A stretch of DNA of 64,000 nucleotides. It comes from the human T2T-CHM13v2.0 reference genome, Homo sapiens. Positions 21,547 through 21,924 of this stretch are shown here, piece after piece (positions within the stretch are counted from its first letter, which is position 1; every line of letters begins with the position of its first letter). The notes under the pieces were generated by a model, which was given only the letters and a program-made list of their open reading frames with translations, was not told the DNA's origin and searched no databases. A program made the position numbers and the translations under genes. The stretch lies in NCBI RefSeq assembly GCF_009914755.1, contig NC_060935.1; one strand, given 5' to 3'.

Positions 21547-21876
21547 TTAAGGATAGGGGACCTCTATGGAGGGCATGGTTGGCTTATCCACCTTCAGGGT
21601 GGGCAATGTAGTTTGAAAGGTAGCCTCACTTGTAGCCTGCCTGGTGGGTGCTTGGGTGAGTTCAAAGACCACGGTGGGCATCGGTGGTTGAATCTCATGC
21701 TTGCCAGGCTTCAGAGGTGTGACAGCATTCTTGATAGGTAGTAGTTTCTTGGATGGTGCTGCAAAATTGAAATGGCCTTGGTGTTCCTTTCCACTCTTGG
21801 GTAGAGCCGGGTAGAGGGCTGCTAGAGTCCAAGGACCTTCCACAACTCGGACAGGAGGTTTCATGGCTATGTGCAA
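21547..21876 (-). CDS. GDPD4: Open 109-codon GDPD4 long C-terminal tail (LHIAMKPP...IEVPYP*), downstream of the microsatellite stop
   Basis: Uninterrupted ORF; I recall it as the tail of the long GDPD4 isoform; in frame with upstream exons only if the repeat is bypassed or has one unit. Confidence 0.7.
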
Positions 21877-21896
21877 ATCTATCTATCTATCTATCT
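21877..21896 (-). repeat. (AGAT)5 microsatellite inside the GDPD4 last exon
   Basis: atct x5 on +. Confidence 0.98.
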
Positions 21897-21924
21897 TCCT
21901 CATTCTTACTTCCACTCTGAGTAT
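21887..21924 (-). CDS. GDPD4: GDPD4 last exon, coding part as read on this sequence ([12 protein letters not shown])
   Basis: catcccacag|ATACTCAG; phase 1 matches the previous exon; TAG falls inside (AGAT)5. Confidence 0.88.

What the first reader, a model, noticed from the sequence alone, without database searches (positions are those of the whole stretch)
21547..21924. (AGAT)5 expansion truncates GDPD4 in front of an intact 109-codon tail
Seen (minus strand): GAG GA(AGAT)5 TTG CAC ATA GCC ATG. The frame fixed by upstream exons reads ...KNEEDR* (TAG at 21889-21887). With one AGAT unit it would read ...[13 protein letters not shown]...IEVPYP* in perfect frame; two units frameshift and three or more give the stop. 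The downstream ORF has no lesions. Inference: the ancestral gene had the long Pro/Thr-rich cytoplasmic tail, and a recent lineage-specific microsatellite birth turned it into 3'UTR. As it is in the last exon the stop escapes NMD, so contraction alleles would restore the tail.
Basis: partly seen in the sequence, partly recalled or inferred. Interest (0 to 1): 0.85.

Follow-up and report, generated by a model that had tools for sequence, protein, structure and literature searches.

The report
Tetranucleotide repeat stop truncates human GDPD4
A five-unit AGAT repeat in the last coding exon of the testis gene GDPD4 puts a stop codon in frame and cuts off an open, coding-like 109-codon tail, which explains why public databases disagree on the length of the human protein.

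Summary
A perfect (AGAT)5 lies at window 21877-21896 on the minus strand. In the RefSeq Select frame the protein ends ...KNEEDR at a TAG (21889-21887) made from units 2 and 3. A stop-free 109-codon ORF follows, at 21547-21876. The unit arithmetic holds: one unit gives 628 aa with the tail, two units give a frameshifted 580 aa, and three or more give 520 aa.

The tail looks like former coding sequence:
- An ORF this long is rare by chance, at 0.7-1.2%.
- Its hexamer score exceeds all 39 chance ORFs in the window.
- A Gnomon model and the 72.4-kDa UniProt entry both include a tail-length C-terminus.

Gnomon reaches the tail through a 31-nt "intron" whose acceptor scores worse than all 214 real acceptors tested, so splicing is unlikely.

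The claim of a recent, lineage-specific origin could not be tested, because no mammalian orthologues were reachable. "Contraction alleles restore the tail" holds only for exactly one unit.

This is a real case of a known kind of lesion in a gene that appears dispensable. Interest is moderate to low.

The parts
21877..21896 (-). Perfect (AGAT)5 microsatellite inside the last coding exon of GDPD4
   Evidence: period 4, 5.0 copies, 100% matches, no degenerate flanking units reported.
21887..21889 (-). In-frame TAG stop of the RefSeq Select CDS, made of the last base of unit 2 and the first two bases of unit 3
   Evidence: The NM_182833.3 CDS ends at chr11:77149887, which is window 21887.
21887..21924 (-). 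Coding start of the last exon in the Select frame (..[11 protein letters not shown], stop)
   Evidence: Annotation and translation. The exon acceptor at 21925 scores at the 75th percentile of 214 real acceptors.
21547..21876 (-). Stop-free 109-codon tail ORF plus a TAA stop; rich in Pro and Thr, not hydrophobic, no predicted fold; 3'UTR in the Select mRNA and CDS in Gnomon XM_054368018.1
   Evidence: Composition is 18 P and 11 T of 109 residues, with a maximum Kyte-Doolittle window of 0.7. AlphaFold2 on the single sequence gave pLDDT 61 and pTM 0.13. Hexamer score is +0.29 in frame and negative in the other two frames.
21879..21909 (-). 31-nt gap (GTAAGA ... AG of the fifth unit) that Gnomon treats as an intron to join the exon start to the tail
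   Evidence: It is the only Gnomon intron under 60 nt among 8276 on chr11. Its acceptor score of -12.6 is below all 214 real acceptors, with 3 pyrimidines at -23..-5 against a real minimum of 8; its donor is at the 9th percentile of 209.
21168..21546 (-). Remaining 3'UTR after the tail ORF; all three frames carry stops and score as non-coding
   Evidence: 4, 6 and 8 stops in the three frames; hexamer scores -0.36, -0.45 and -0.69. Transcript ends lie at 21168 and 21471.
33757..33839 (-). Exon coding the last hydrophobic segment (about aa 469-487 of 520); this leaves a stub of about 33 residues after the membrane in the truncated protein
   Evidence: Hydropathy scan and exon-to-residue map.

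Best explanation
The last coding exon of human GDPD4 (GDE6, a multi-pass membrane glycerophosphodiesterase expressed in testis) holds a perfect (AGAT)5 microsatellite. From three units upward the array itself spells an in-frame TAG. The reference gene product therefore ends at residue 520, about 33 residues after the last transmembrane segment. The 109 codons behind the repeat are most likely the former cytoplasmic C-terminal tail, now carried as 3'UTR. Because the stop lies in the last exon, the mRNA should not be a target of nonsense-mediated decay, so a tail-less enzyme is made rather than none.

Shown: the repeat, the stop, the frame arithmetic, the open and coding-like ORF, and the two conflicting public gene models.

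Inferred: that the tail was ancestrally coding; that the array grew from one unit through a frameshifting two-unit stage; that the change happened within primates; and, by analogy with GDE2, that loss of the tail affects trafficking rather than catalysis.
For: - Repeat and stop.
- Select CDS of 520 aa with no other lesion, and the unit series 1/2/3 or more giving 628/580/520 aa.
- ORF open for 109 codons.
- Chance of such an ORF: 1.2% of 100144 non-exonic positions, and 144 of 20000 shuffles.
- Hexamer coding score: the tail scores +0.29 in frame, against -0.59 and -0.27 in the other frames and -0.36 to -0.69 in the UTR behind it. 0 of 39 chance ORFs of 109 codons or more reach it. Over 20 train/test splits, 0 of 39 reach it in 16 splits and 1 of 39 in 4 splits; the tail exceeds 63% of held-out real coding windows.
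- Gnomon XM_054368018.1 reads the tail as CDS.
- A table in PMC10273630 (passage seen) lists UniProt Q6W3E5 at 72,363 Da. The computed masses are 60,819 for the 520-aa form and 71,995-72,583 for the tail-bearing forms.
- NM_182833.3 aligns to CHM13 with no gap in this exon, while other NM records on chr11 show gaps of 1-30 nt where CHM13 has extra bases. The Select mRNA therefore carries the stop too.
- The C-terminal tail of GDE2 directs export, endocytosis and recycling (PMC7033719, abstract and passages).
- Human GDE6 expressed from a Gnomon model stayed mainly intracellular in HEK293 cells (PMC5576486, passages).
- From recall, not from any call: UniProt gives 623 aa for human and 632 aa for mouse GDPD4. 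Both figures fit a tail of about 100 residues after the same start.
Against: - No orthologue was examined, so the ancestral state, the unit number in outgroups and conservation of the tail are all untested.
- The tail alone found no homologue, but that search sees only proteins of 60-190 aa. It also found no Pfam family.
- An ORF P value of about 1% becomes about 2-4% once one allows that any of the three frames could have been rationalised.
- The hexamer model rests on only 19 genes (68 kb of CDS), many with long disordered exons, and the null set is only 39 ORFs.
- The UniProt mass matches no CHM13-derived form exactly. The nearest of all frame-restoring single deletions is 8 Da off, and the 623-aa form is 368-414 Da off.
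- If the cDNA behind UniProt is real, some transcripts may still encode the tail.
Confidence: 0.66

Rival explanations
1. The tail is still made. The 31 nt from GTAAGA to the AG of the last repeat unit are removed from part of the transcripts as an ultra-short intron, giving the 623-aa protein that the databases show. The repeat would then be intronic in those transcripts, and its unit number would not matter for the product.
For: Gnomon XM_054368018.1 has exactly this gap, with GT and AG ends. The Select start plus this gap gives 623 aa, which equals the UniProt length as I recall it. The UniProt mass of 72,363 is tail-sized. Because the acceptor is the last unit, the spliced product would be the same for any unit number (reading).
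Against: It is the only Gnomon intron under 60 nt among 8276 on chr11. Select introns under 40 nt number 3 of 10276, and at 26-30 nt they sit among the 1-30-nt gaps in other NM records that I read as alignment gaps between CHM13 and the mRNA. Its acceptor scores below all 214 real acceptors and has 3 pyrimidines where real sites have at least 8; its donor is at the 9th percentile. A 31-nt intron leaves no room for a branch point at the usual distance (established knowledge). The RefSeq Select mRNA does not use it. The computed 623-aa mass differs from the table by 368-414 Da.
Confidence: 0.1
2. The 109-codon ORF is a chance open frame in a C-rich 3'UTR and was never coding. The ancestral protein ended close to the present stop, and the repeat only moved the stop slightly.
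For: Open frames of this length occur at 1.2% of non-exonic positions in this window, in 39 distinct ORFs. The tail has no Pfam match, no fold and no detectable homologue in the length range searched. A Pro/Thr-rich translation is what a C/A-rich sequence gives.
Against: The tail's hexamer score exceeds 39 of 39 chance ORFs (38-39 of 39 over 20 splits), while the other frames and the UTR behind it score as non-coding. There are 0 stops in frame against 6 and 4 in the other frames. The frame fits the upstream CDS with exactly one unit. Gnomon and UniProt both hold a tail-length product. The recalled mouse length of 632 aa implies a long tail.
Confidence: 0.14
3. The stop is an allele, not a fixed state. 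Human haplotypes differ in unit number, and some carry one unit and the full tail, so the locus is a polymorphic switch of C-termini.
For: Tetranucleotide arrays of this motif class are typically length-polymorphic (established knowledge). Different unit numbers give three different products. GDPD4 is listed among genes with homozygous loss-of-function variants in PMC3868571 (gene list seen), so variation is tolerated.
Against: Both sequences visible here, CHM13 and the Select mRNA aligned to it without a gap, carry the stop. One-step changes from 5 units (to 4 or 6) leave the protein unchanged; only a loss of exactly four units restores the tail. No population data could be consulted.
Confidence: 0.05

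Closest known systems
Frameshift or nonsense lesions made by non-triplet microsatellites in coding exons (coding microsatellite instability; lineage-specific gene truncation by repeat growth)
   Same: A perfect array with a 4-nt unit sits inside the CDS. Unit number sets the frame, and the repeat itself supplies the stop.
   Different: The lesion is germline and in the reference, not somatic. It sits in the last exon, so only a disordered tail is lost, with no predicted mRNA decay. From three units up, all alleles give the same protein, so further length change is silent.
C-terminal tail truncations of the paralogue GDE2 (GDPD5), studied in PMC7033719
   Same: The architecture is the same: multi-pass membrane protein, GDPD ectodomain and a long intracellular C-terminal tail (passages). 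The cut falls after the last membrane segment.
   Different: The GDE2 truncations were engineered and their trafficking effects measured; for GDE6 nothing has been measured. The tails share no detectable similarity: an own-genome protein search found only the locus itself, 1 match of 16 candidates scored.
Human ultra-short introns and exitrons
   Same: The Gnomon gap has GT and AG ends and lies inside a coding exon.
   Different: It is only 31 nt long, has no pyrimidine tract, and its acceptor is worse than every real site tested. No transcript evidence was available here.
Partial unitary gene decay in testis-specific genes tolerant of loss
   Same: Gdpd4 mutant mice are fertile (PMC6744855, abstract and passages). 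GDPD4 appears in a list of genes with homozygous loss-of-function variants (PMC3868571).
   Different: The rest of the CDS (520 aa) is intact in CHM13, so this is a truncation, not a dead gene.

Membership tests
GDE2/GDE3/GDE6 subfamily of membrane glycerophosphodiesterases (gene identity of GDPD4) | GDPD catalytic domain | tested here: inconclusive
   Single exon pieces hit Pfam GDPD PF03009 (E 0.004, 17.7 bits, cut-off 23.6) and GDPD_2 PF13653 (E 3.7e-4, 21.3 bits, cut-off 27). Both are below the cut-off because only pieces could be scanned; 3 of the 5 pieces gave no GDPD hit. The gene name comes from the RefSeq annotation supplied with the finding.
GDE2/GDE3/GDE6 subfamily of membrane glycerophosphodiesterases (gene identity of GDPD4) | Several N-terminal membrane segments, an ectodomain, one last membrane segment, then an intracellular C-terminal tail | tested here: met
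   Hydropathy peaks lie at about aa 32-64, 69-87, 110-128 and 158-183, with a last one at 469-487 of 520. This is a crude window scan that resolves five to six segments. The architecture is as described in PMC7033719 and PMC5576486.
Truncation by a coding non-triplet microsatellite | Tandem array with a unit not divisible by three, inside the CDS, which itself creates the frameshift or stop | tested here: met
   (AGAT)5 with 100% matches. The TAG spans units 2 and 3. Unit series.
Truncation by a coding non-triplet microsatellite | Sequence downstream was coding before the repeat grew (outgroups lack the array and read through) | not testable with these tools
   No mammalian genomes are on hand, and the protein word search cannot reach full-length orthologues from a 109-aa query. 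Only indirect support is available.
Stop codon that escapes nonsense-mediated decay | Stop in the last exon, or less than about 50-55 nt upstream of the last junction | tested here: met
   The stop lies 36-38 nt into the last annotated exon of NM_182833.3. The rule itself is established knowledge; mRNA stability was not measured.
Spliceosomal ultra-short intron | GT-AG ends | tested here: met
   Window 21909-21908 is GT and 21880-21879 is AG on the minus strand.
Spliceosomal ultra-short intron | Usable acceptor (pyrimidine tract, branch point) and a length within the range of real introns | tested here: not met
   The acceptor score of -12.6 is below all 214 real acceptors, with 3 pyrimidines against a real minimum of 8. 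It is the only Gnomon intron under 60 nt among 8276 on chr11.
Spliceosomal ultra-short intron | Transcript evidence for the junction | not testable with these tools
   Sequencing reads are off for this job, and the cDNA behind the UniProt entry could not be seen.

The most novel reading that the evidence does not exclude
The 31 nt bounded by GTAAGA and the AG of the last AGAT unit are truly excised in testis. That would make a microsatellite-defined micro-intron, among the shortest in humans, which rescues the ancestral tail whatever the unit number. Its efficiency could rise with longer alleles, so that repeat length tunes the ratio of tail-less to tailed enzyme.
Probability: 0.06. Interest if true: 0.7.

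Novelty: new member of a known kind. Interest (0 to 1): 0.33.

Why it matters
It explains a concrete disagreement between public resources. The RefSeq Select mRNA gives a 520-aa, 60.8-kDa human GDPD4, while the Gnomon model and the UniProt entry (72.4 kDa in a published table) carry about 100 more residues.

Anyone who expresses "human GDE6" has to choose a C-terminus. In the paralogue GDE2 this part controls export and recycling. The one published localisation of human GDE6 used a Gnomon model and found the protein mainly inside the cell.

If outgroups confirm the reading, this is a clean textbook case of a microsatellite born in an exon that removes a protein tail without killing the gene. 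The wider impact is limited, because mouse mutants are fertile and humans tolerate loss-of-function variants in this gene.

Tried and rejected
Homologues of the tail.
- The search for homologous proteins with the 109-aa ORF found no candidate. This says little, because only proteins of 60-190 aa are seen and 2 candidates of untold source were left out.
No stop-free reference long enough to reach proteins of 520-730 aa exists, and joined sequences may not be typed.
- Pfam on the tail gave 0 families.
- The ESM Atlas gave only bacterial hypothetical proteins at scores of 0.90 or less, which is noise level. It also noted that the Atlas holds this ORF from its Met.

Copies in the genome. DNA of the last exon and the protein of the tail each found only the locus itself. 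There is therefore no retrocopy to serve as an internal outgroup and no paralogous tail.

Literature.
- 'GDPD4' is held by 67 papers. I saw titles of 30, 18 up to 2019, and 40 of 48 from 2020 on. None deals with the C-terminus, the repeat or the stop. 8 titles from 2020 on were not listed.
- 'GDPD4' with 'short intron': 0 papers.
- 'GDPD4' with 'tandem repeat': 2 unrelated papers.
- UniProt-style names for mouse, rat and cow: 0 papers.
- 'Q6W3E5': 1 paper, used for the mass.
- Nogusa 2004, Corda 2009 and Li 2022 are not held.
- Supplements were not consulted; those of PMC6744855 (figures on the Gdpd4 mutant) might show the mouse protein.

Mass matching. I scanned all single deletions of 1-59 nt starting at 0-59 of the last exon that put the tail in frame. 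None reproduces 72,363 exactly, so the junction used by UniProt stays unidentified.

Dating. Neutral-decay arithmetic, with rates recalled rather than computed, gives the probability that the tail stays intact as 0.74-0.83 since the chimpanzee split, 0.22-0.39 since the Old World monkey split and 0.002-0.023 since the rodent split. This is too weak to support 'recent'.

Stop-codon readthrough was rejected as a rescue. After the TAG the frame continues into the other, stop-laden frame.

Full report
**What is there**

On the minus strand the last exon of GDPD4 starts at window 21924, behind a good acceptor (75th percentile of 214 real acceptors). It reads ..ACT CAG AGT GGA AGT AAG AAT GAG GAA GAT AGA TAG.
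- Tandem Repeats Finder reports one array in 21100-22100: 21877-21896, period 4, 5.0 copies, 100% matches.
- The TAG at 21889-21887 is built from the last base of the second unit and the first two bases of the third.
- Spliced from the annotated parts, the RefSeq Select CDS (NM_182833.3) is 1563 nt, which is 520 aa, with no internal stop. It ends ...[11 protein letters not shown].
- In another frame, the sequence from just after the repeat to 21547 is open for 109 codons and ends IEVPYP then a stop.

**Frame arithmetic**

A script that varied only the number of units in the genomic exon gave:

| Units | Product |
|---|---|
| 0 | 520 aa, different ending |
| 1 | 628 aa, tail in frame |
| 2 | 580 aa, frameshifted ending |
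| 3 to 8 | 520 aa, ending ...KNEEDR |

Length variation among alleles of three or more units does not change the protein. Only a loss of exactly four units from the present five would restore the tail.

**Is the tail more than a chance ORF?**
- In the window's non-exonic sequence, both strands, 1206 of 100144 positions (1.2%) are open for 109 codons or more. Of 20000 dinucleotide shuffles of the tail, 144 (0.72%) have no in-frame stop. Allowing that any of three frames could have been explained by some unit number, this is about 2-4%.
- The tail has 0 stops in frame against 6 and 4 in the other frames. The 379 nt of UTR behind it have 4, 6 and 8.
- I trained a hexamer log-odds model on 68 kb of CDS from 19 other chr11 genes against 111 kb of their non-exonic sequence. 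The tail scores +0.29 in frame, -0.59 and -0.27 out of frame, and -0.36 to -0.69 in the UTR behind it. None of 39 chance ORFs of 109 codons or more in the window reaches the tail.
- Over 20 random train/test splits, no chance ORF reached the tail in 16 splits and one did in 4. The tail exceeded 63% of held-out real coding windows.
- The model is small and its genes hold many long disordered exons, so this is moderate evidence that the tail is, or recently was, coding.
- The tail itself has 18 Pro and 11 Thr in 109 residues and no hydrophobic segment. It has no Pfam match and no predicted fold (pLDDT 61, pTM 0.13, single sequence). This is what a disordered cytoplasmic tail would look like.

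**What the databases say**
- Gnomon model XM_054368018.1 codes the tail by leaving out window 21879-21909. This is a 31-nt "intron" from GTAAGA to the AG of the fifth unit.
- The Select start joined to that gap gives 623 aa and 71,995 Da. One unit gives 628 aa and 72,583 Da. The Select product is 60,819 Da.
- A proteomics table in PMC10273630 lists UniProt Q6W3E5, named there as GDPD4, at 72,363 (passage seen). The UniProt entry is therefore a tail-length protein, not the 520-aa one.
- I recall, from no call, 623 aa for the human entry and 632 aa for mouse. Both fit a tail of about 100 residues.
- The table mass matches no CHM13-derived form exactly. The nearest among all frame-restoring single deletions is 8 Da off, and the 623-aa form is 368-414 Da off. 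The exact junction in UniProt stays open; residue differences between haplotypes could explain the gap.

**Is the 31-nt gap a real intron? Probably not.**
- It is the only Gnomon intron under 60 nt among 8276 distinct ones on chr11.
- The short gaps of 1-30 nt in NM records (KCNQ1, PAX6, STK33, IGSF9B, OR10A6, OR51B5, KRTAP5-7) look like alignment gaps where CHM13 has extra bases.
- With weight matrices from 209 donors and 214 acceptors of Select introns in the sequence I held, the donor GAA|GTAAGA lies at the 9th percentile.
- The acceptor scores -12.6, below every real acceptor, and has 3 pyrimidines at -23..-5 where real sites have 8 or more.
- NM_182833.3 shows no gap in this exon. I infer that the Select mRNA has no fewer bases here than CHM13 and carries the stop.

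**Gene context**
- Exon pieces in the window hit Pfam GDPD (E 0.004) and GDPD_2 (E 3.7e-4), below the cut-offs as expected for pieces.
- A hydropathy scan puts the last membrane segment at about aa 469-487. The truncated protein keeps a stub of about 33 residues, where a tail of about 140 would otherwise be.
- GDE2, GDE3 and GDE6 share multi-pass architecture, an ectodomain and intracellular tails (PMC7033719, PMC5576486; passages).
- In GDE2 the tail (aa 518-605) governs export, endocytosis and recycling, and its most distal part is poorly conserved (PMC7033719).
- Human GDE6 expressed from XM_011544834.1 was mainly intracellular in HEK293 cells (PMC5576486).
- Gdpd4 mutant mice are fertile (PMC6744855).
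- GDPD4 is in a list of genes with homozygous loss-of-function variants (PMC3868571).
- The locus is single-copy, with no retrocopy and no paralogous tail.

**What could not be done**

The decisive test, unit number and tail conservation in apes, monkeys and other mammals, was out of reach.
- No mammalian genomes are on hand.
- The protein word search sees only proteins of 0.55-1.75 times the query length, so the 109-aa tail cannot reach full-length orthologues.
- A spliced query may not be typed.

A neutral-decay estimate with recalled rates gives the probability that an unselected tail stays intact as 0.74-0.83 since the chimpanzee split, 0.22-0.39 since the Old World monkey split and 0.002-0.023 since the rodent split. 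This argues only against a pre-primate date. The purity of the array fits youth but does not prove it.

**Verdict**

The most likely account (about two in three) is that a microsatellite arose in the last coding exon, made a stop from three units on, and turned a former cytoplasmic tail into 3'UTR. The mRNA is spared from decay and a tail-less enzyme is produced.

| Rival account | Confidence |
|---|---|
| The tail is still made through the 31-nt excision | about 0.10 |
| The ORF is chance | about 0.14 |
| The state is polymorphic, with an intact one-unit allele | about 0.05 |

The mechanism is of a known kind, and both readings already sit in public annotation. No paper among those whose titles I saw treats it. 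The main practical value is to tell users of GDPD4 models which C-terminus the reference genome supports.

Noticed in passing
window 20419-20438 and 48132-48155: There are two other perfect tetranucleotide arrays of 5 or more units. (TGAT)5 lies in the 1.3-kb gap between the convergent 3' ends of MYO7A (19851) and GDPD4 (21168). (AGGG)6 lies 153 nt from GDPD4 exon 48308-48462.
   Followed up: no
window 28848-28969: Gnomon XM_054368017.1 ends in an alternative terminal exon that overlaps a masked repeat (28688-28921) and contributes only 5 coding bases, giving a 311-aa product.
   Followed up: no
window 21184-21189 and 21485-21490 (minus strand): AGTAAA lies 16 nt before the transcript end at 21168, and AATATA lies 14 nt before the end of XM_054368016.1 at 21471. 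That these are known variant poly(A) hexamers is recalled, not tested.
   Followed up: no
window 21550-21864: The ESM Atlas holds the tail ORF from its internal Met (residue 5 of the ORF) as a record of its own, without a structure. This shows neither expression nor occurrence elsewhere.
   Followed up: no
chr11 annotation outside the window (IGSF9B, OR10A6, OR51B5, KRTAP5-7, PAX6, STK33, KCNQ1): NM records placed on CHM13 show gaps of 1-30 nt written as introns. These are most simply insertions in CHM13 relative to the RefSeq mRNA. I used them only to judge what a gap in this annotation means.
   Followed up: partly
GDPD4 5' end, chr11:77217757-77219735 (outside the window; loci L004, L005): The Gnomon model starts 26 residues upstream of the Select start codon by way of a longer second exon (649 against 623 aa for the same C-terminus). 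The N-terminus of the human protein is therefore also modelled in two ways.
   Followed up: no
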